A stretch of 64,000 nt of DNA, taken from a virus. Its lineage: Duplodnaviria; Caudoviricetes. The DNA lies in IMG/VR virus record IMGVR_UViG_3300032007_000009; one strand, 5' to 3'. Positions 2,949 through 56,638 of the stretch are shown piece after piece; position 1 is the stretch's first letter; every line of letters begins with the position of its first letter. The translations under genes were made by a program, and so were the position numbers. The notes beneath the pieces are model-generated. The model was not told where the DNA came from and made no database searches. It saw only the letters and a program-made list of their open reading frames with translations.

Positions 2949-3040
2949 GCCAGTCTAACGTTCGGTGGTCTGTAAAACCACTCCGCTTTAACAAATAGAC
3001 GTATGGTTGCGGTAAATAGGTTCGAATCCTTTGACTGGCA
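2949..3040 (+). ncRNA. D-armless tRNA-like RNA, anticodon GTA, long variable arm
   Basis: GCCAGTC/GACTGGC-A, only 9 nt between acceptor and GTGGT-CTGTAAA-ACCAC, TTCGAAT T-loop. Confidence 0.7.
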
Positions 3041-4385: not shown

Positions 4386-4464
4386 ACAGCGGTATCGTCG
4401 CAGTCTTATACACTGACATTAACCACGTAATAGGTGTATGTGGGTTCGAGTCCCACCCGCTGTA
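4386..4464 (+). ncRNA. D-armless tRNA-like RNA, anticodon TAT, long variable region
   Basis: ACAGCGG/CCGCTGT-A, ~8-nt linker, CAGT-CTTATAC-ACTG, GTGGG-TTCGAGT-CCCAC. Confidence 0.7.
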
Positions 4465-4469
4465 CATTT

Positions 4470-4606
4470 GGGTAGGTAACATAAGAAAAGATTTAAAACT
4501 TCGTTCGTTGTTCTCCGAAAGGTAGTGTAGAATCGTGAGTTACTTCAAAGGTTAATGTATTTGTCTGTTAAACAAAAGAGTGTTGGTTCGAGTCCAGCCC
4601 TACCTA
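4470..4606 (+). tRNA. tRNA(GTT, Asn anticodon) with ~64-nt Y-RNA-like insert in the D-loop
   Basis: GGGTAGG/CCTACCT, D stem ACAT/ATGT split by insert ~4485-4548, TTTGT-CTGTTAA-ACAAA, T arm intact; A73 rather than G73. Confidence 0.75.
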
Positions 4607-4624: not shown

Positions 4625-4689
4625 GGGCCAGTAGTAATAAGAGAAAAACACCTGACGGGGAGTTGGAGGTTCAAATCCTCTCTGGTCCA
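4625..4689 (+). ncRNA. 65-nt Ala-identity tRNA mimic lacking an anticodon loop
   Basis: GGGCCAG/CTGGTCC with G3-U70 and A73, T arm GGAGG-TTCAAAT-CCTCT, anticodon arm reduced to CC-TGAC-GG. Confidence 0.6.
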
Positions 4690-4699
4690 CAATTATAAT

Positions 4700-4831
4700 G
4701 GTGCAGTAGCTAAACGGGAATTAAAAAACTTCATTCGTTTTTCTTCAGTAATTGATAGTGTAGAGTGCGAGTTACTTCAAAGCATTAATATGTAAAATTA
4801 AGGAAAGTTGGTTCGACTCCAACCTGCACCG
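4700..4831 (+). tRNA. tRNA-like RNA (loop ATGTAAA, GTA) with ~60-nt Y-RNA-like insert in the D-loop
   Basis: GGTGCAG/CTGCACC-G, D stem GCT/AGC split by insert ~4718-4779, TTAAT/ATTAA stem, short V loop. Confidence 0.7.
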
Positions 4832-5088: not shown

Positions 5089-5332
5089 GGCGATGGAGTT
5101 TAATAAGGAAGTTTTCTGTTTAATTTTCCGGCAGGACTGTTATTTTTATATTAATGGCAATACTTATCGACGGGTAAGCACCCAAATATAAAGTATAACA
5201 AATTAAACAAGATGTGTGGTTAGAGGTCAAGCAGGCCCGGGAGAAAGTGAGGAACCAAGTTTCCACATGTTGAAAACAAAGAATACCGGCGTGACAAGCC
5301 GGAGGCTATGGGTTCGAGTCCCATCATCGCTA
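5089..5332 (+). tRNA. tRNA-Val(GAC) with ~170-nt structured insert in the D-loop
   Basis: GGCGATG/CATCGCT-A, D stem GTTT/GAAT, CCGGC-GTGACAA-GCCGG, ATGGG-TTCGAGT-CCCAT; insert closed by GTTTTC/GAAAAC. Confidence 0.75.
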
Positions 5333-7116: not shown

Positions 7117-7187
7117 TGGGCTATAGTATAATGGCAGTACACAAGATTTTGGTCCTTGTAGTGGCAGTTCGAATCTGCCTAGCCCAA
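7117..7187 (+). tRNA. tRNA-Gln(TTG)
   Basis: U1-A72, loop TTTTGGT. Confidence 0.88.
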
Positions 7188-7541
7188 CTAAAACTTATGT
7201 GAACGGATCATGACACTGGTTACCGTTTTTGCAGTCTGTAGGTATACATACAGATGAGGTTATCGGAGAAGAATGAAGGAACCGAAGGTTAGTAAAGTTT
7301 TAGAACACCTGACTTCACCAGAATAAGTTTTTTAAAATATATAGCGAGAACAGGCCTCTGAGTAGGAACTGGGGTAAGTCTAATAAGTACACCGGTCAAT
7401 TTTATTAGATGTAGTTCGGAGTTAATAATTACTGTCAGCCCAGTGAAAGGAGTTGAGTTTCGTGAGAGCTCATAAGGTGCAACGCAACAGAAATTCGTAT
7501 AGGTCTTTCAGTCCGTAGCTCGCAAATTTTCTCGCTAATAT

Positions 7542-7621
7542 ACGGAAGTGCCGCAGTGGTCGACCGGACTTGTCTCCAAAACAAGAATTATACGTCGTGG
7601 GTTCGAATCCTACCTTCCGTG
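7542..7621 (+). tRNA. tRNA-Trp(CCA)
   Basis: CTTGT-CTCCAAA-ACAAG, G73. Confidence 0.88.
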
Positions 7622-7629
7622 CAAAACCA

Positions 7630-7860
7630 GGGATCAGAGTTAAACGGACATTGTTTACTACTTGTTAATATGTTTGGCAACTTGCGGCATGGTGCAAAAC
7701 GCGTTTGTATTTCATAGATCGCAGAAGGTTAGATCAAAATGAGGCAGAGTTAAGATAATTGTTTTTAGGTATGAACGTGATACCGAGTTTTTGATTAAGT
7801 AAGAAATAACACTCGGAGATTAAACCGAGAGATATTGGGTTCGACTCCCAGTTGATTCCA
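7630..7860 (+). ncRNA. Short tmRNA-like RNA
   Basis: GGGATCA/TGATTCC-A (G3-U70, A73), stemless D loop ending GAC, TTCGACT T-loop, ~190-nt internal region; smpB encoded in window; tag frame not identified. Confidence 0.6.
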
Positions 7861-7974: not shown

Positions 7975-8045
7975 GGTCCATTGGTATAGAGATTGTGCCG
8001 CTGCTTCTAACACAGCTGAGGTGGGTTTGAGTCCTACATGGATCA
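7975..8045 (+). tRNA. Probable amber suppressor tRNA (CTA anticodon)
   Basis: GGTCCAT/ATGGATC-A; GCTG(C)-TTCTAAC-(A)CAGC centres CTA at 8007-8009; the Arg(TCT) register pairs poorly. Confidence 0.65.
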
Positions 8046-8163
8046 CCTTTTTGGAGGAGAACATGGTATGAAATCCATGCAGTCCGACTTTGAAGGCTGA
8101 AGCTTTGAACGTTATTGAAGCCCTCTTTATTTTTATTTTATAACAAATTAAATTAATTAAATT

Positions 8164-8205
8164 ATGAAACAGTTTTGGTAGATTGCTGATTTAGGTTTTC
8201 CGTAA
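8164..8205 (+). CDS. Putative leader peptide MKQFW(amber)IADLGFP
   Basis: AT-rich start context; TAG at codon 6; ends Phe-Pro-TAA; followed by repeated TGTTCAA/TTGAAA-type pairing elements (TTGAAC). Confidence 0.4.
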
Positions 8206-8321
8206 ATTAAATGTATTTATTATTATGTTCAAAGTTTTCTTTGTGTTCAAAAATTTTGAACGGTTATATTTTATTGAACACCTTTTAGTTAAATTAAATA
8301 AATACATTAAATATTATAATT

Positions 8322-8771
8322 ATGGAAAATAAAGAATTAAGAAATGCATTAGTTAATGCAATTAAGAACGAGTTAAAAGATTTCACTCAAATTCAAAAGA
8401 ATTTAAAGAAGTCACGTAAATTAGAATTTCGTCCAAAGGACAAAAGCTTACAAGAAATTGTAGACGAAATTGATAGAAATGCAAGCAAAATTTCTACACT
8501 TATTTTTCATTATCGTTGGATTAGACACGGTCTTAAATATTGGAACAATAGAGATGTGCATTCATTTAAAGAGTATTATTTAAGTGATACATTTAATAAC
8601 AATTACTGGGGAGACTATTGGGATAAGGAAATCCTTTATGGTAGTAATAAAGGTAAAACACATGGTCAAATTATTACTGAACATGCAAAGAATTTCTTTA
8701 TCACAAAATGCAATGAATATGGTATTGAAATTTCAGAAAACAATGTCAATTATTTAATGCAAAATATTTAA
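8322..8771 (+). CDS. Hypothetical phage protein
   Basis: ORF track, operon context. Confidence 0.7.
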   Translation: MENKELRNALVNAIKNELKDFTQIQKNLKKSRKLEFRPKDKSLQEIVDEIDRNASKISTLIFHYRWIRHGLKYWNNRDVHSFKEYYLSDTFNNNYWGDYWDKEILYGSNKGKTHGQIITEHAKNFFITKCNEYGIEISENNVNYLMQNI

Positions 8772-8774
8772 GTT

Positions 8775-8996
8775 ATGGAACTTACTTACAAGATATTAAT
8801 TCAGAATGAAAAACAAGCACAAGATCTTATTAACGAATGGGATAATGATCAATGGAGACATTTTCTTCGATTAAAAGATTTTGAAAAATATCCTGCATTA
8901 GTATGTTATTATGATGATGAAAATGATTATTCAATGTCATATTCTGCTACTGTTTATTATTCTATAACTTATTTAGACGATTTTAAAAATTTATAA
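8775..8996 (+). CDS. Hypothetical protein
   Basis: Tightly packed ORF. Confidence 0.65.
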   Translation: MELTYKILIQNEKQAQDLINEWDNDQWRHFLRLKDFEKYPALVCYYDDENDYSMSYSATVYYSITYLDDFKNL

Positions 8997-8998
8997 TT

Positions 8999-9373
8999 AT
9001 GAAATTTACAAAAGAAGAACTTAAACAATTTATTTGGGATAATAGTAAGTTTAATTATATTTGTAAGAATATTTGTAAAGAACTTAGTCGATGGGATGAT
9101 TCTTTTAAATTTTCTGATGAATTTATAATGGAAGATAAAAAAGTAAGATGTGAAGGTGATGAATATTGGTCTTATGGTGGACATGAACATTACAGAAATC
9201 ATTTTGATATAGAATTACTTACTTATTCTAAAGATGAATTAAAAAAATATGTTGATAAAAAAATTGCTGAACGAGATGCTAAACTTAAAAAAGAAAACGA
9301 AATTAAGGAAGCATATCGTAAAGAACAAGAACTTAAAGAATTAAAAAGACTTAAAGATAAATATGAAAAATAA
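8999..9373 (+). CDS. Hypothetical protein
   Basis: Tightly packed ORF, C-terminal ELKRLKDKY motif. Confidence 0.7.
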   Translation: MKFTKEELKQFIWDNSKFNYICKNICKELSRWDDSFKFSDEFIMEDKKVRCEGDEYWSYGGHEHYRNHFDIELLTYSKDELKKYVDKKIAERDAKLKKENEIKEAYRKEQELKELKRLKDKYEK

Positions 9374-9701
9374 ACTTTATATATTAATTGATAAAAATTT
9401 AGATTCAATTTATGGATCAGTACAAGGTGGTCATGCAGTTGCTGAATGGTTGCTTGAAAATTGGTAGTTATTAAAAAATGGAGATCCATCTTGGGAATGG
9501 AATAATGATTATCTTATTTATTTATCAGTTGACATAAATAAATGGTATGAAACACTTGCCCCATATTATCCTTCTAAATTTAAATGGGCTGTTTTTAGAG
9601 AACCAGATTTAGATAATAGAATAACATCAATTGCAATTTATGAAAATGATTTTCCGGAAAATATAAAAAGAAAATTAAAAAATGAGGGGTTACTTAAATA
9701 A
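9363..9701 (+). CDS. Pth2-like peptidyl-tRNA hydrolase with in-frame TAG (9465-9467)
   Basis: Manual translation: MKNKLYILIDKNLDSIYGSVQGGHAVAEWLLENW*LLKNGDPSWEWNNDYLIYL...FREPDLDNRITSIAI...GLLK; QxGHA and FREPDL..ITxIA motifs on either side of the TAG. Confidence 0.75.
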
Positions 9702-9709
9702 CCCCTTTT
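9685..9709 (+). terminator. Intrinsic terminator
   Basis: AGGGGTTA-CTTAAA-TAACCCCT followed by T tract. Confidence 0.7.
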
Positions 9710-13404: not shown

Positions 13405-14712
13405 CTAAAATGTACAGTTTGAATTAATAGCTAATATTTTTGCTTTAGTTTCCTCATTTAATGATGTACATCCAGTAAATGCATCACCCTGTATGAAAGA
13501 TATTGAATTTGGTATATTTATTGATATTAATGATGTACAATTATAAAATGCTAACGAACCAATTGATACTACTGAATTACCTAATGTTACTGATGTTAAT
13601 CCAGTACATCCATTAAATGTATTATTATATATTGTTGTTACAGAATTAGGTATAATTATTGATGTTAATGATGCACAATGATAAAATGCCGCAGAACTAA
13701 TTGATAATAATGAATTACTTAATGTTACTGATGTTAATCCAGTACATCCATTAAATGCATTATTATCTATTGATATTACAGAATCTGGTATATTTATTGA
13801 TGTTAATGAAGTACAATTATTAAATGTGCCTGATTCAATTGATGTCACAGAATTACCTAATGTTACTGATGTTAATCCAGTACATCCATCAAATGCCGCA
13901 TAACCAATTGATGTTACAGAATTAGGTATGTTTATTGATGTTAATGATGTACATCCATTAAATGCACTATTACCTATTGATGATACTGAATTACCTAATG
14001 TTACTGATGTCAATGATGAACATCCTTGAAATGCATATTGTCCAATTGATGTTACAGAATTAGGTATGTTTATTGATGTTAATGATGAACATAATACAAA
14101 TGCAGAAGTTCCAATTGATAATAATGAATTACCTAATGTTACTGATGTTAATCCAGTGCATCTATTAAATGCGTTATCCCCAATCGATGTTACAGAATTA
14201 CCTAATTTTAATGTAGTAAGTTCTGTACACGCATTAAATACTGATGAACCAATTGTAGTTATTGAATCTGGTATGTTTATTTTTTTTAATCCACTACAAT
14301 TTAAAAATATATTACTCCCTAATGTTTTATATATATTAGGTATACTTGCACTTTTAATATATATATTCATTATTAATGGAGCATTATCACCTAATGTATC
14401 ATTATTAAACTTAATTTTTAAAATATGATCATTATTATCATTTATATCTTGTACCTTTAATGGTGATAAATAATTTTGTTCAACATCATCAAATAAAACT
14501 TTATTTATTACATCTGCACTATTATATGTTGTCCATAATGTTGTATTTCCATTATTTCCATTTGTATTAATTACACATATTAAATAATCTCCTTTATCAT
14601 AATATATATCACCATCCCCAATATTCATATAAATATTTGGACTTGCATATTCGTTTGTTCCATATATATTATATAAATTAGATTTTGATTGAAATTGTTT
14701 AATATATTTCAT
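13405..14712 (-). CDS. BspA-type leucine-rich repeat (LRR_5) protein
   Basis: Many 23-aa repeats LTSINIPNSVTSIGxxAFxGC. Confidence 0.92.
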   Translation of the reverse strand: MKYIKQFQSKSNLYNIYGTNEYASPNIYMNIGDGDIYYDKGDYLICVINTNGNNGNTTLWTTYNSADVINKVLFDDVEQNYLSPLKVQDINDNNDHILKIKFNNDTLGDNAPLIMNIYIKSASIPNIYKTLGSNIFLNCSGLKKINIPDSITTIGSSVFNACTELTTLKLGNSVTSIGDNAFNRCTGLTSVTLGNSLLSIGTSAFVLCSSLTSINIPNSVTSIGQYAFQGCSSLTSVTLGNSVSSIGNSAFNGCTSLTSINIPNSVTSIGYAAFDGCTGLTSVTLGNSVTSIESGTFNNCTSLTSINIPDSVISIDNNAFNGCTGLTSVTLSNSLLSISSAAFYHCASLTSIIIPNSVTTIYNNTFNGCTGLTSVTLGNSVVSIGSLAFYNCTSLISINIPNSISFIQGDAFTGCTSLNEETKAKILAINSNCTF

Positions 14713-23444: not shown

Positions 23445-23882
23445 ATGGAAATTATAAATAGAAAAGCTAAACATGATTATGATATTGTAGAAACTTATAA
23501 TGCAGGATTAGTATTAATAGGTTCTGAAGTCAAATCTATTAAAGCAGGCAAAGCAAACATTGGAGATGCATATTGTGTCATAACTAATAGTGAGGTTTGG
23601 TTAAAGAATTCTCATGTTTCTAAATATGACTCAGATATATTTACAAATCATGAAGAGAAACGTGAACGTAAATTACTTTTGAATAAAAAAGAAATACGAA
23701 AGATTAAAGAACAAATTTCTGAAAAAGGATTTACTATTATACCTTTAAAAATATATATCGAAAAAGGTAAGATTAAATTACAGATAGGAGTATGTAAAGG
23801 TAAACATAATTATGATAAACGAAATGACATAAAAGATAGAGATAATAAACGTGAATTAGATCGTATAATGAAAAACTATTAA
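23445..23882 (+). CDS. smpB: SsrA-binding protein SmpB
   Basis: NRKAKHDY..AGLVLIGSEVKSIK..RERKLLLNKKEI..GFTIIPL..KGKHNYDKR. Confidence 0.97.
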   Translation: MEIINRKAKHDYDIVETYNAGLVLIGSEVKSIKAGKANIGDAYCVITNSEVWLKNSHVSKYDSDIFTNHEEKRERKLLLNKKEIRKIKEQISEKGFTIIPLKIYIEKGKIKLQIGVCKGKHNYDKRNDIKDRDNKRELDRIMKNY

Positions 23883-27367: not shown

Positions 27368-29467
27368 ATGATAAATAAAGTATATACTAATGATTGGTTC
27401 GGTCGTTCTGGTGAATATATTTTAAAGAATGAGGACTTAGAAATTGGATTTGCTAAAACACCACAAAATCAGTATTCTCAATATCTTTATGATGAACATA
27501 AAGCTGAACAGATTTGTTCAGACATTAAGTTGATGATTAATGAAATGAGTCATATTATTCGAGCAATAGGTTTAAATAATGTAAGATTTAAATTATCAAA
27601 GAATGTTGAAACTGCATGTACAGATGGTAAATCAATTTATGTAGGTGTAGGAGATAATTATAAAAATATAAATGATGTATATGAAAAGTTAGACCGTGTA
27701 ATTGGTATGACAATTCATGAATGTTGTCACTGTTTATATACAGATTTTAATTATATTAAATATAACTTAACGGGTAAAAGTCAGTTAATTCATCACATTC
27801 ATAACGTTATAGAAGATGAAATGATTGAAAATAAGTTATGTTTATTATATCCAGGTTACGGAAATTTTCTTGCTAAATTAAAATATAATATTTTTGAAAA
27901 GGAATTAAAAAATAATGACGATAATTCAGAACTTAATAAGATTCTTGAAATATTGTTTTATTTAATTAGATATCCTAAGCTTTTAGCAAATATTTCAGAA
28001 GCAGATTTTAAAAAATATGAATCTTTATTCATTAAAATTAAGAAAATAATGGGTGAAGAGAAATGTTTTACATTAACATATAAAGAATGTACAAAATCTT
28101 CAATTAATGCAGCAATTAGAATTTATGAACTACTTGCAGAATATATTGATGAAAATGAAATATCTGGTAAATCAGGTAAAGGTAATAATTCTTCAGATAA
28201 TTCAAATGAATCAGAAAATGAATCTGATGAAAATGAATTAAATGAAAGTATTGAAACTAATGAAGATGAATCAGAAGAAAATGAATCTGATAAAAATGAA
28301 TTAAATGATTCAAATGATTCAAGTGAAATTAAAGATTCAAAATCAGATGAAAATGAAACTTCAAATAATTTAGATTCTGATGAAGACGATATGATTACTC
28401 CTGAAATTGTTGATGACAATATTGAAATAGAAATTGGAGAAGAATCAACATTAGATAATAATGGGATTGTTGATACTATGAATAGTATTAATGAAAACGA
28501 TATTACATCAACTTCTGAATCTCCTATTGCGAATAAAATTATTGTTCAACATACAGATATTGAAGAAAAAGAAACTACAGAAGAAATTATCAAAGAATGT
28601 GATGAATATAAAGAAAAGAATAGTTTAAATACAAATAAAATTTATGATTATAATATTGAAGACAAAAATACATATATGAAATATTATAATGATATTAAGT
28701 CATATATTCCAATAACACAGAAAATTATTATTCCTAATAATAAAAGTATTGAATACAAAAATGAACAATACCGTAGAAATGGTTCATTAGATCCCACGAG
28801 GCTTGCAAATGCAATGTGTAATGAACAAACAGTTTATACACAGAAATCATTTAAGATTTCAAATAATGATCCAAAATATGCATTAGTAATTCTTTTGGAT
28901 GAGTCAGGTTCAATGGAAGATATGAATGTTAATGTATTTGCTTCTAAACTTGCTATTTTATTTTATGAAAGTTTTAAGAATTATCCAAATATACGGTTAT
29001 TCATATATGGACATGGTGATTGTATTTATAGATATATTGATACTAAACATAATAACAAATTTGTATTAGGTAATCGTCGTTCACAGATGAGTCAGAATGA
29101 AGTAATAACATATAACACTGTTATTGAGGATGTTAAGTCACAGACAAATTTACCAATTGTAGTATTTAATCTAACTGATTCATTATATTGTTCAAACGAT
29201 TCAGATCTTAAAGAATGTGTTAATAATATTATTAATGATAAAACTCGTAAGATATCGCTTAATCTTGTAGTACTTAGAAAAGATGAAACTCATTGGGGTT
29301 GGTGTTCATCAACTATTAATGATGATATTTATGGAAAAGGACATTATGTTGTATATCATCACACATTATTTAAATCTTCAAATGAATTAATGTTTATATC
29401 TACATTAAAATCATTAGGTAAAATCATTATAGATAATTTTAATAAAAGAAAATTAAAAAATGAATAA
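27368..29467 (+). CDS. CobT-like protein: HExxH domain, acidic linker, VWA domain (MoxR partner)
   Basis: TACTDG, HECCH, NVIED; GSLDPTRL; MIDAS DESGSM. Confidence 0.85.
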   Translation: MINKVYTNDWFGRSGEYILKNEDLEIGFAKTPQNQYSQYLYDEHKAEQICSDIKLMINEMSHIIRAIGLNNVRFKLSKNVETACTDGKSIYVGVGDNYKNINDVYEKLDRVIGMTIHECCHCLYTDFNYIKYNLTGKSQLIHHIHNVIEDEMIENKLCLLYPGYGNFLAKLKYNIFEKELKNNDDNSELNKILEILFYLIRYPKLLANISEADFKKYESLFIKIKKIMGEEKCFTLTYKECTKSSINAAIRIYELLAEYIDENEISGKSGKGNNSSDNSNESENESDENELNESIETNEDESEENESDKNELNDSNDSSEIKDSKSDENETSNNLDSDEDDMITPEIVDDNIEIEIGEESTLDNNGIVDTMNSINENDITSTSESPIANKIIVQHTDIEEKETTEEIIKECDEYKEKNSLNTNKIYDYNIEDKNTYMKYYNDIKSYIPITQKIIIPNNKSIEYKNEQYRRNGSLDPTRLANAMCNEQTVYTQKSFKISNNDPKYALVILLDESGSMEDMNVNVFASKLAILFYESFKNYPNIRLFIYGHGDCIYRYIDTKHNNKFVLGNRRSQMSQNEVITYNTVIEDVKSQTNLPIVVFNLTDSLYCSNDSDLKECVNNIINDKTRKISLNLVVLRKDETHWGWCSSTINDDIYGKGHYVVYHHTLFKSSNELMFISTLKSLGKIIIDNFNKRKLKNE

Positions 29468-55777: not shown

Positions 55778-56638
55778 ATGGCGACAAAAGAAGAACTTAT
55801 TGATAATATACAATGTTGGGTATTCAATTTTAATAATTATTGGGAAGACCCAGTAACTGAAAGTGAATTTGTTAAAAACACATATGAAACATGCGATTTA
55901 ATAATTGCTTATTGTAATATCATTAAAGCTAAACAAAAGAAACTTGGTAAAAAATATGATGAGCATCCTAAAGATGTACAAGAAGCTATATCAAAAATTA
56001 TATCATTAGTTTCAGATGGTCGTGATTTATGGCATAAAGTAAAATATTGTAAAATTGGCGGTAATATATTTGATCTATTAGAAATAGGTAAGCATATAGA
56101 ACCAAGAGAATATGATCATCATGTAAATGAAACTGGATATCTTGATTTTGAAGATAAACCAATGGTAAGATGTCAACAGATTATTGATGATTGTGAAGAA
56201 TTAAAAGAAGTATTGAATTCTGAAAAGGAAACAAAAAACTTTAAAAAATTTGTTGGGAAGATTCTTTATTGGGAAAATTATGAATCTGGTTCTGCTGCAA
56301 TAAAAATTGATAAAATCAATAAAAACAAAAAAGGAGAATTTACTTTTGATGGTATATTGATTACTTATGAAACAGTTAATGGGCATTGTGATGGTGATGG
56401 CTTTATAATGACTGAAGTAGAAGATTTAAAGTTTAGTGAAATTCCTTATTGCTATTGTGAATGGGATACTGAAGAAGATGCGTATGAATCTTTAAGTGGA
56501 GCAGAAGAAAAAACAATAAAAGACATATATACAGATTTAAAGTCAATATCAATGAATTTAGTTGAACAGTATTTTTCTTGTAGAATATATGATCCTAAAG
56601 AGGAAGAAGTAGAAGAATACGATGAAGACGAAGAATAG
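55778..56638 (+). CDS. Hypothetical acidic protein (TAG stop)
   Basis: ORF track. Confidence 0.7.
   Translation: MATKEELIDNIQCWVFNFNNYWEDPVTESEFVKNTYETCDLIIAYCNIIKAKQKKLGKKYDEHPKDVQEAISKIISLVSDGRDLWHKVKYCKIGGNIFDLLEIGKHIEPREYDHHVNETGYLDFEDKPMVRCQQIIDDCEELKEVLNSEKETKNFKKFVGKILYWENYESGSAAIKIDKINKNKKGEFTFDGILITYETVNGHCDGDGFIMTEVEDLKFSEIPYCYCEWDTEEDAYESLSGAEEKTIKDIYTDLKSISMNLVEQYFSCRIYDPKEEEVEEYDEDEE

What the first reader, a model, noticed from the sequence alone, without database searches (positions are those of the whole stretch)
7975..9701. Amber-gated module: suppressor tRNA(CUA) upstream of a Pth2-like gene split by TAG
Seen: a tRNA with CTA-centred loop at 7975-8045, and ORF 9363-9701 with one in-frame TAG at codon 35. 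Pth2-like motifs lie on both sides of the TAG, the start is coupled to the upstream gene and a terminator sits at the TAA. Terminase, portal and the 1152-aa protein have no in-frame TAG, so this is not wholesale code 15. Known: recoded gut phages read TAG as Gln using suppressor tRNAs, and Pth recycles peptidyl-tRNA. Inference: hydrolase synthesis depends on amber readthrough, reporting suppressor tRNA versus RF1 activity.
Basis: partly seen in the sequence, partly recalled or inferred. Interest (0 to 1): 0.85.

Follow-up and report, generated by a model that had tools for sequence, protein, structure and literature searches.

The report
Amber-gated Pth2-like gene with suppressor tRNA
A 236-kb phage that otherwise uses the normal genetic code carries its own UAG-reading tRNA and, 1.3 kb downstream, a small tRNA-hydrolase-like gene that keeps one UAG stop inside it, so the full protein can probably be made only while that tRNA overrides the stop.

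Summary
Rfam finds a tRNA at 7975-8045 (34.9 bits, threshold 29). Its anticodon CUA is invariant in 17 relatives, and the stems show compensatory changes. ORF 9363-9701 has one in-frame TAG, at codon 35.

The TAG is not an error. It sits at the same loop in 28 loci from independent assemblies. In a 21-sequence clade the codon changed 3 times, while the two codons after it changed 9 and 10 times. The part after the TAG has no start codon of its own and is under purifying selection.

The "Gln" seen in database homologues comes from code-15 gene calling, so the inserted amino acid is unknown.

The protein has the Pth2 fold (Z about 10) but misses the Pfam PTH2 model and the Gly-Lys motif. A canonical PTH2 lies elsewhere in the genome.

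Two findings are new here:
- The family lies beside a suppressor tRNA (CUA, UCA or UUA) in 75 of 75 loci with enough flank, including Lak-like megaphage loci.
- It usually follows a conserved helical partner protein, to which it is sometimes fused.

This genome and a 98%-complete relative both fit code 11, and this gene is the only conserved TAG client. Other family members carry amber gates at other positions.

Earlier reports of this scan describe the same tRNA-and-gene pairing on other DNA. The mechanism is inferred, not shown.

The parts
7975..8045 (+). Suppressor tRNA, anticodon CUA, the last gene of a tRNA array with more than 50 genes. A73 discriminator; positions 31 and 39 never pair.
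   Evidence: Rfam tRNA 34.9 bits against a threshold of 29. CTA invariant and 8 compensatory pairs in 17 homologues. Homologues in relatives are called tRNA(cta) by ARAGORN.
8322..8771 (+). 149-aa helical protein. It is conserved directly after the suppressor tRNA in the TAG clade, and its motif Y-R-W-I-[RK]-H-G-L resembles the A-Y-Y-I-x-K-H motif of the partner family.
   Evidence: tblastn hits in 22 loci of the clade; alignment A7. AF2 pLDDT 90, all helical, no PDB match. hhalign against the partner family A8 is weak (36%, N-terminal helix only).
8775..8996 (+). 73-aa ORF, function unknown, present in part of the clade.
   Evidence: tblastn hits in 9 loci; no Pfam or PHROG hit.
8999..9373 (+). 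124-aa ORF whose stop overlaps the start of the Pth2-like gene. Its Y-G-G segment resembles, by eye, the C-terminal half of the partner protein of relatives.
   Evidence: ORF list; homologue only in L016; comparison by eye with the upstream ORFs listed.
9363..9701 (+). Pth2-fold gene, 112 codons, read through one TAG (protein P0001).
   Evidence: Translation. 240 homologues; 906 cluster representatives at E<=0.001. AF2 pLDDT 95.6. All top matches are Pth2 structures, Z 9.7-10.4 over 98-104 residues.
9465..9467 (+). In-frame TAG (codon 35), the 'gate', in the loop after helix 1.
   Evidence: Same codon in 28 loci. 3 changes of the codon on the clade tree, against 9 and 10 at the next two codons and 4.4 per third-position site.
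9684..9707 (+). Terminator-like hairpin over the TAA, followed by a T-rich tail (5 T in 8 bases).
   Evidence: Terminator scan: 9 pairs, 4 of them G-C; 4 sites found against 0.5 expected.

Best explanation
This is a conserved phage module made of three parts: a suppressor tRNA(CUA), one or more small helical partner proteins, and a divergent Pth2-fold protein.

The Pth2-like ORF carries a UAG that is kept by selection at a surface loop. The phage encodes no release factor and no GlnRS or GluRS. So the host must charge the tRNA, and the tRNA must compete with host RF1 at that codon. Termination gives a 34-residue stub. Readthrough gives the 112-residue protein. The amount of full-length protein therefore follows the ratio of suppressor activity to RF1 activity.

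The protein most likely acts on the ester at the 3' end of a tRNA, either a peptidyl-tRNA or an aminoacyl-tRNA. It would either clear by-products of stop-codon readthrough or tune the suppressor itself.

Shown by comparison: the tRNA, the conserved stop, the linkage, the fold, and the standard code of the genome. Inferred: that the tRNA is expressed and charged, which residue it inserts, that the protein is a hydrolase, and the direction of any feedback.
For: 1. The tRNA is real and its anticodon CUA is invariant. The 19:56 tertiary pair also covaries: D-loop GA goes with T-loop TTT, and GG with TTC, as read from alignment A2.

2. TAG lies at the same loop in 28 loci. Every TAG-bearing locus with enough flank has a tRNA-CUA within about 0.06-1.9 kb: 0.6-1.9 kb upstream in the window's clade, about 60 nt downstream in L079/L081/L083.

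3. The stop codon itself is conserved. Of 21 distinct clade sequences, 17 have TAG, 1 has TAA and 3 have a sense codon (TAT twice, AAT once), and those three are nested within the clade. The codon changed 3 times, while the codons at +1 and +2 changed 9 and 10 times. No CAG or CAA is seen.

4. The downstream part is translated. No ATG, GTG or TTG start gives 30 aa or more in 9468-9701. dN/dS is 0.14-0.63 downstream of the TAG and 0.05-0.20 upstream. The invariant residues W46, N48, Y50, E80, D82 and T88 all lie after the TAG.

5. The family is tied to suppressor tRNAs. All 75 loci with flank have one within 2.1 kb, and it is the nearest tRNA in 72, against 12 expected by chance. The anticodon is CUA, UCA or UUA. 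In some loci the suppressor is the only tRNA in 20 kb. A remote fused member, L118, also has a tRNA-CUA as its only tRNA.

6. Gates arose independently elsewhere in the family. L062 and L076 have a 5-codon leader followed by TAG. In L042 and L066 the ORF has no ATG and sits in frame behind the partner gene, separated only by TAG. L084 has TGA at the invariant Trp, with a tRNA-UCA 519 nt upstream.

7. G000 and the 98%-complete relative G002 both fit code 11, and this is their only conserved TAG-interrupted gene.

8. The fold is Pth2.

9. The phage also encodes SmpB and a canonical PTH2, so it invests in ribosome rescue and tRNA recycling.
Against: - Nothing is experimental. Expression, charging and decoding by the tRNA are all unknown.
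- The tRNA has a permanent 31:39 mismatch. In the window it also has U56 and a weak D stem.
- The protein fails the Pfam PTH2 model. A profile-profile comparison with the phage's own PTH2 family is not significant (probability 2.4%), and the Gly-Lys motif falls in a gap. Hydrolase activity is therefore uncertain.
- One close relative, L005, has TAA at the gate but only a CUA tRNA.
- Thirteen phage genes end in TAG, so a strong suppressor would extend them, though by 14 residues at most.
- About two thirds of distinct family members have no internal stop. Gating is therefore an add-on to the module, not its essence.
- The loci are not phylogenetically independent.
Confidence: 0.6

Rival explanations
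1. Ordinary incipient code-15 recoding. Once an efficient suppressor is present, TAG is just another sense codon at a tolerant loop, and its presence in this gene has no regulatory meaning.
For: A second, strain-specific TAG interrupts a 320-aa gene elsewhere in the genome, at a position where the closest homologues have Trp. This shows that TAG mutations are tolerated. Lak-like relatives of the family are fully recoded: coverage rises from 0.53 to 0.9 under TAG=Q. Borges et al. (bioRxiv 10.1101/2021.08.26.457843) propose this path, with low GC first, then a suppressor tRNA, then in-frame stops.
Against: A neutral codon at a hypervariable loop should have drifted to sense codons many times. 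It changed 3 times, against 9-10 for its neighbours and about 13 expected from third-position rates, and never to CAG or CAA. Gates arose independently at other positions of the same family. In two genomes this is the only conserved TAG client.
Confidence: 0.2
2. A retention or addiction device. The suppressor tRNA serves another purpose, such as disturbing host or rival-phage translation or extending TAG-terminated proteins. The TAG in a useful neighbouring gene merely ties the two together, so that the tRNA cannot be lost.
For: The tRNA and the gene are always linked. The suppressor has almost no clients in a genome that otherwise uses the standard code. No release factor or aminoacyl-tRNA synthetase accompanies it.
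Against: This does not explain why the linked gene is always from this one tRNA-hydrolase-like family, nor why the family is linked to suppressors even where it has no internal stop.
Confidence: 0.1
3. A split gene. TAG is a true stop, and the 34-residue and 77-residue parts are made separately by reinitiation and then assemble.
For: Some relatives have an ATG two codons after the TAG (L001, L003, L004). The cut falls in a loop between structural elements.
Against: The window and most clade members have no ATG, GTG or TTG start after the TAG. A cognate suppressor is always beside the gene.
Confidence: 0.04
4. A sequencing error, or a recent nonsense mutation in a decaying gene.
For: Only that a single base makes the stop.
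Against: The same codon is present in 28 loci from independent ENA, JGI, Logan and IMG/VR assemblies. There are no further lesions, and dN/dS is below 1 after the stop.
Confidence: 0.01

Closest known systems
Stop-codon recoding in phages with phage-encoded suppressor tRNAs (TAG read as Gln, 'code 15'; Lak megaphages, crAss-like phages; Borges et al., bioRxiv 10.1101/2021.08.26.457843; Peters et al., PMC9523058)
   Same: A low-GC phage, TAA-dominated stops, its own tRNA(CUA), and an in-frame TAG in a phage gene. The same protein family occurs in all 15 Prevotella Lak megaphage records in GenBank.
   Different: The genome is not recoded: coverage is 0.874 under code 11 and 0.883 under code 15, and 13 genes end in TAG. 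There is one conserved client, which is not a structural or lysis gene but a tRNA-hydrolase-like gene next to the tRNA. The paper does not mention a hydrolase or peptidyl-tRNA (0 occurrences).
prfB (RF2) autoregulation through an in-frame UGA (from general knowledge; also named as closest known by earlier scan report e1-933198)
   Same: A conserved in-frame stop inside a translation-factor-type gene, so that the yield of the gene depends on how that stop is decoded.
   Different: Here the escape is readthrough by a dedicated tRNA, not a +1 frameshift. Whether the product feeds back on decoding of the stop is unknown.
Pth2 peptidyl-tRNA hydrolase (Pfam PF01981), including the PTH2 genes of jumbo phages (Iyer et al. 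2021, PMC7824862)
   Same: Same fold over the whole length (Z 9.7-10.4, rmsd about 3 A). The Q..HA motif of helix 1 is shared. Similar size.
   Different: No Pfam hit. The Gly-Lys motif is missing. The family has its own invariant set (Y17, H24, W46, N48, Y50, E80, D82, T88). The phage has a separate canonical PTH2 at G000 27688-28089. Iyer et al. mention no suppressor (0 occurrences).
'Code change module' of Jade phages (suppressor tRNA + TrpRS + RF1; Borges et al.)
   Same: A compact locus that groups a suppressor tRNA with protein genes acting on translation.
   Different: The proteins are different (a Pth2-like protein and a helical partner, not a synthetase or a release factor). The Jade module is itself written in the standard code, whereas here the module's own gene holds the stop.
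Amber-gated Pth2-like cassettes reported earlier in this scan on other genomes (e1-933198, e1-3446603, e1-5391601 and others)
   Same: The same pairing of a tRNA-CUA with a Pth2-like gene that holds a matching stop, in phages that otherwise use the standard code.
   Different: Those gates are at codons 3-11. Here the gate is codon 35, in a clade-specific loop. These are AI notes. I tested only that early gates also occur in this family (L062, L076, L042, L066).

Membership tests
tRNA (Rfam RF00005) | Score over the family's gathering threshold, full-length cloverleaf | tested here: met
   34.9 bits against 29, model positions 1-71.
tRNA (Rfam RF00005) | Stems supported by compensatory changes in homologues | tested here: met
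   94.6% of cells paired. 8 pairs changed on both sides; 0 of 500 shuffles reach this, and slid controls give 0.
Amber suppressor tRNA | Anticodon CUA in a 7-nt loop with U33 and a purine at 37 | tested here: met
   Loop UUCUAAC. CTA and A37 are invariant in 17 sequences, though two relatives have C33.
Amber suppressor tRNA | Is aminoacylated and decodes UAG in vivo | not testable with these tools
   The isotype is unresolved: best similarities are weak and mixed (Lys, Arg, Asp, Trp).
PTH2 (Pfam PF01981) | Match to the family HMM | tested here: not met
   No Pfam family at E<=10. The same model scores 112.7 bits on another gene of this genome.
PTH2 (Pfam PF01981) | Profile-profile homology to PTH2 sequences | tested here: inconclusive
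   hhalign A3 against A6: probability 2.4%, E 0.019, and only 36 N-terminal columns align. Both alignments have low diversity.
PTH2 (Pfam PF01981) | Pth2 alpha/beta fold | tested here: met
   Model pLDDT 95.6. Matches 1q7s, 3erj, 2zv3, 1xty and 1wn2 at Z 9.7-10.4; the next unrelated chain scores Z 2.8. Viral Pth2 models top the BFVD search.
PTH2 (Pfam PF01981) | Conserved Gly-Lys of helix 1. K22 is invariant in the phage PTH2 alignment A6; that it is catalytic is my recollection of the Sulfolobus Pth2 work. | tested here: not met
   In the hhalign alignment K22 of PTH2 falls in a gap of this family, and invariant Y17-G18 align to K20-G21.
PTH2 (Pfam PF01981) | Peptidyl-tRNA hydrolase activity | not testable with these tools
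Code-15 (TAG-recoded) phage | Coding density clearly higher with TAG as sense; many genes with in-frame TAG | tested here: not met
   Coverage 0.874 against 0.883. Only 2 convincing TAG-interrupted genes among about 300. Same picture in relative G002.
Code-15 (TAG-recoded) phage | TAG not used as a terminator | tested here: not met
   13 of 301 called genes end in TAG, with a second stop 0-14 codons later.
Autoregulatory recoding site (prfB type) | In-frame stop conserved by selection | tested here: met
   3 changes of the codon against 9-10 at the neighbouring codons.
Autoregulatory recoding site (prfB type) | The gene product alters decoding of that stop | not testable with these tools
   Function of the protein is unknown.

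The most novel reading that the evidence does not exclude
The module is a self-contained homeostat for stop-codon readthrough. The Pth2-like protein, working with its helical partner, specifically hydrolyses the ester on the module's own suppressor tRNA, in its aminoacyl or peptidyl form. Because the gene holds the cognate stop, the protein level is set by the suppressor/RF1 ratio. The result is a prfB-like feedback loop that fixes how much UAG readthrough an infected cell experiences. It would also explain why phages that use the standard code keep suppressor tRNAs.
Probability: 0.2. Interest if true: 0.9.

Novelty: new variant of a known kind. Interest (0 to 1): 0.78.

Why it matters
Suppressor tRNAs are common in phages that show no sign of recoding, and what they do there is an open question. 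This locus gives such a tRNA a concrete, conserved client: a tRNA-hydrolase-like gene next door that keeps the matching stop codon under selection. The same family accompanies suppressors of all three stop codons, from standard-code jumbo phages to Lak megaphages.

If the reading is right, it is a natural translational switch built from one tRNA and one stop codon. It would also identify a protein family, with a partner protein, that belongs to the machinery or the side-effects of stop-codon suppression. Both ideas can be tested directly with reporters, mass spectrometry and tRNA biochemistry.

There is also a practical warning. Gene callers that switch to code 15 print Gln at this codon and so hide the stop.

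Tried and rejected
- **Gln from homologues.** I first read Q35 in 'full-length' database homologues as evidence for Gln. The DNA shows TAG, translated 'with_TAG=Q', so I rejected this.
- **Isotype of the tRNA.** Global alignments to the genome's 52 tRNAs and to 666 tRNAs of related loci gave only weak, mixed best hits. A tRNA-Trp origin suggested by eye was not borne out: identity is 55-63% and the discriminator is A73 against G73.
- **Sequence links to solved Pth2.** hmmsearch of the family profile against PDB sequences found nothing relevant. hhalign against the phage's own PTH2, alone and as a family, was not significant.
- **The 149-aa neighbour.** Pfam, PHROGs, the protein atlas and Foldseek against PDB gave nothing. 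hhalign to the partner family reached only 36% probability over one helix, so the relation rests on a short motif seen by eye.
- **Second TAG gene in relatives.** P0122 was not found in three related records. Its TAG is therefore strain-specific, not a second conserved gate.
- **Code usage of 20-kb loci.** The crude coverage comparison is blurred by the tRNA arrays and separated only the Lak-like loci clearly.
- **Other 'TAG-internal' ORFs.** Those in G000 and G002 proved to be overlaps or true stops followed by junk.
- **Atlas fold search.** The machine did not answer.
- **One fused protein.** P0374 could not be checked because no DNA was available.
Full report
**What is there**

The window is bases 74281-138280 of a single 235,986-bp virus contig with 25.8% G+C. 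The contig has a T4-type portal and a large terminase. ARAGORN finds an array of 52 tRNA genes, and Rfam adds several more.

The last tRNA of the array lies at 7975-8045. ARAGORN misses it. Rfam's tRNA model matches it end to end at 34.9 bits, above the curated 29. In that alignment the anticodon loop is UUCUAAC, so the anticodon is CUA, and the lowest stem pair (31:39) is a C.A mismatch.

I collected 16 homologous tRNAs from related phage loci. CTA is invariant, while the two bases before it and the base after A37 vary. Eight stem pairs show changes on both sides, and none of 500 shuffles reaches that number. The 19:56 elbow pair also covaries, as read from alignment A2. The 31:39 position is unpaired in all 15 distinct sequences, so the mismatch is a conserved trait.

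**The gene**

ORF 9363-9701 has one in-frame TAG, at 9465-9467. Its ATG overlaps the stop of the upstream ORF, and a hairpin with a T-rich tail covers its TAA.

After the TAG there is no ATG, GTG or TTG that could start a product of 30 residues or more. The 77 downstream codons contain no Met at all.

Pfam gives nothing at E<=10. PHROG 3668 'hydrolase' matches at 9.5e-10.

An AlphaFold model built on 117 homologues is confident, with pLDDT 95.6. Its best matches in the PDB are all Pth2 peptidyl-tRNA hydrolases or close look-alikes. They include Bit1/PTRH2 (1q7s), AF2095, MJ0051, the Sulfolobus Pth2 and PH1539. They score Z 9.7-10.4 over 98-104 residues, while the next unrelated chain scores 2.8. 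Viral Pth2 models top the BFVD list.

The fold spans both sides of the TAG, and codon 35 sits in the loop after helix 1. At the sequence level the relation to PTH2 is not demonstrable. A profile-profile comparison with the phage's own canonical PTH2 family gives a probability of 2.4%. It aligns only the first strand and helix, shares the Q..HA motif, and leaves the Gly-Lys of PTH2 in a gap. The genome has a separate, canonical PTH2 (112.7 bits) at 27688-28089 of the contig. So this gene is a divergent Pth2-fold family with its own invariant residues. It is not a PTH2 member in the Pfam sense.

**The TAG is real and selected**

A search of 5.8 billion proteins returned 240 relatives. Many are 'full length' with Gln at position 35. 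Fetching their DNA showed that these proteins translate only 'with_TAG=Q'. The Gln therefore comes from automatic code-15 gene calling.

Shorter database entries turned out to be the downstream piece of genes with the same TAG.

In 80 IMG/VR loci plus the assembly loci, tblastn places a stop at this loop in 30 loci: TAG in 28, TAA in one (L005), and TGA in one (L084).

On a maximum-likelihood tree the TAG-bearing genes form one clade of 21 distinct sequences. Of these, 17 have TAG, 1 has TAA, and 3 nested members have TAT or AAT. A separate long branch (L079) also carries TAG.

Parsimony counts on the clade tree give 4.4 changes per third-position site. The amino acids at the two codons after the gate changed 9 and 10 times. 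The gate codon as a whole changed only 3 times, and never to CAG or CAA.

dN/dS against the window's copy is 0.05-0.20 before the stop and 0.14-0.63 after it. None of the copies has a further lesion. A sequencing error, a private nonsense mutation and a decaying pseudogene are all excluded. Neutral persistence of a 'sense' TAG is unlikely.

**Linkage to suppressor tRNAs**

Every TAG-bearing locus with enough flank has a homologue of the window's tRNA-CUA or another tRNA-CUA nearby: 0.6-1.9 kb upstream in the window's clade, about 60 nt downstream in L079, L081 and L083.

The more distant family members, which lack the loop, have a suppressor tRNA 20-700 nt downstream in most loci (up to about 1.7 kb). 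Most are CUA. Four loci have UCA. The four Lak-like loci have UUA about 700 nt upstream, and it is the only tRNA in their 12-20 kb of flank.

Of 75 loci with adequate flank, all 75 have a suppressor within 2.1 kb. It is the nearest tRNA in 72, where 12 would be expected if tRNAs were placed at random within each locus. These loci are related, so the counts are not independent events. Even so, the sample spans 66 distinct proteins down to about 42% identity.

A profile search of 1.84 billion representatives finds 906 family members. One remote member that I could fetch (L118) again has a tRNA-CUA as the only tRNA nearby. In GenBank phages the family occurs in all 15 Prevotella Lak megaphage records and one uncultured phage.

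**More gates, and a partner protein**

Prompted by earlier scan notes about early TAGs, I looked upstream of the aligned region.

- In L062 and L076 the gene begins with a 5-codon leader followed by TAG.
- In L042 and L066 it has no ATG at all. It lies in frame behind the preceding gene, separated only by TAG.
- In L084 a TGA replaces the family's invariant Trp, and a tRNA-UCA lies 519 nt upstream.

So stops matching the neighbouring suppressor arose several times, at different places in this one family.

The preceding gene belongs to a family of 90-170-residue helical proteins with an invariant Y..KH motif (A-Y-Y-I-x-K-H). It sits directly upstream of the Pth2-like gene in most loci. In some marine and other contigs it is truly fused to the Pth2-like gene under table 11 (P0488, P0510).

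In the window's clade a 149-residue helical protein with a similar motif follows the tRNA. Its relation to the partner family is only weakly supported, and its fold matches nothing solved.

**The genetic code of the genome**

Code 11 covers 87.4% of the contig and TAG=Q covers 88.3%. Genes end in TAA 247 times, TGA 41 times and TAG 13 times. The TAG-terminated genes have a second stop 0-14 codons on.

Besides this gene, only one ORF is convincingly interrupted by TAG. It is a 320-residue protein at 189674-190636 (minus strand), outside the window. Its homologues are uninterrupted and have Trp (the closest ones) or Tyr at that position. That TAG is strain-specific, which suggests that TAG mutations are tolerated in this phage.

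A 376-kb relative rated 98% complete shows the same picture. It fits the standard code, has one tRNA-CUA, and the Pth2-like gene is its only convincing client.

The phage has no release-factor domain and no GlnRS/GluRS-type synthetase. It does have SmpB, at window 23445-23882, and the relative has a tmRNA.

**How it most likely works**

Shown by comparison: a functional-looking tRNA(CUA), a stop codon kept by selection inside a neighbouring gene whose downstream part is still under constraint, and a family-wide linkage to suppressor tRNAs and to a partner protein.

Inferred: the host charges the tRNA, and the tRNA competes with RF1 at codon 35. The yield of full-length protein then tracks suppressor activity.

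The Pth2 fold suggests a protein that handles the acylated 3' end of tRNA. The family accompanies suppressors of all three stops, so its role should concern suppression in general rather than one release factor. It could recycle peptidyl-tRNA and relieve ribosomes after unscheduled readthrough, which fits the phage's SmpB and PTH2. Or it could deacylate or protect the suppressor itself, which would make the loop a homeostat like prfB. I cannot tell these apart.

The inserted residue is also open. Sense replacements at the gate are Tyr and Asn, and the private TAG elsewhere replaces Trp.

**Literature and earlier scan notes**

The recoding survey of Borges et al. does not mention a hydrolase or peptidyl-tRNA. 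The jumbo-phage survey of Iyer et al. notes PTH2 but no suppressor. A 2026 jumbo-phage study discusses suppressors but not Pth2. Four full-text searches found no paper linking the two. That library is incomplete.

This scan has reported the same pairing on many other genomes, with the stop at codons 3-11. Those are AI notes, and one later check priced the bold reading at 20/100.

This report adds the following:
- a different, loop-located gate with a formal conservation count;
- the code-15 artefact in database proteins;
- the linkage across CUA, UCA and UUA suppressors, including Lak-like megaphage loci;
- the partner protein and its fusions;
- two genomes in which this gene is the only conserved client.

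Noticed in passing
window 7785-7859 (part of 7630-7860): A weak tRNA-like match (19.5 bits) with an 8-nt 'anticodon' loop AGAUUAAA. Its arm shows compensatory changes and a variable loop in L008 and L017, while the T arm is conserved. Earlier scan report e1-5657918 describes the whole 231-nt element as a tRNA-like RNA with a D-loop insert.
   Followed up: partly
window 4386-4464, 4545-4598, 4625-4689, 4757-4831, 5269-5324, 2949-3039: Further Rfam matches that ARAGORN does not call. The first five are tRNA matches at 26-34 bits. 2949-3039 is a weak tRNA-Sec match at 23.8 bits, below its threshold of 47. Several ARAGORN tRNAs are 80-91 nt long, which suggests inserts.
   Followed up: no
G000:C1:189674-190636 (minus strand; outside the window): A 320-aa gene (Lcl_C-like C-terminus, below the Pfam cut-off) is interrupted by TAG at codon 153. 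Homologues are uninterrupted, with Trp (79% and 72% identical ones) or Tyr at that position.
   Followed up: yes
G000:C1:27688-28089 (outside the window): A canonical PTH2 gene (PF01981, 112.7 bits) in the same genome, so the amber-gated gene is a second, divergent Pth2-fold protein.
   Followed up: yes
window 23445-23882: Phage-encoded SmpB (PF01668, 194 bits). ARAGORN finds no tmRNA in this contig but finds one in the related 376-kb record, at 103338-103744.
   Followed up: partly
window 13405-14712 (-) and 55778-56638 (+): The only two TAG-terminated genes in the window, one of them a BspA-type LRR protein. Each has a second stop 5-6 codons downstream.
   Followed up: partly
L084:10001-10282: A family member with TGA in place of the invariant Trp, a tRNA-UCA 519 nt upstream and a tRNA-CUA 57 nt downstream.
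   Followed up: partly
L042:9548-10279 and L066:9563-10260: The Pth2-like ORF has no ATG and lies in frame behind the partner gene, separated by a single TAG. In L062 and L076 a 5-codon leader is followed by TAG.
   Followed up: partly
L117:654-1193 and L118:2421-3014: True table-11 fusions of the helical partner with the Pth2-like domain (P0488, P0510). L118 has a tRNA-CUA 739 nt downstream as its only tRNA.
   Followed up: partly
L005:10001-10348: A close relative has TAA instead of TAG at the gate, yet its neighbouring tRNA still has the CUA anticodon and no UUA tRNA was found. This is unexplained: a recent loss, an error, or another decoder.
   Followed up: partly
window 7117-7188, 7542-7622, 7975-8045: The order tRNA-Gln(UUG), tRNA-Trp(CCA), tRNA-like element, suppressor tRNA is conserved in the clade. 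Gln and Trp are the two residues usually assigned to recoded TAG and TGA.
   Followed up: no
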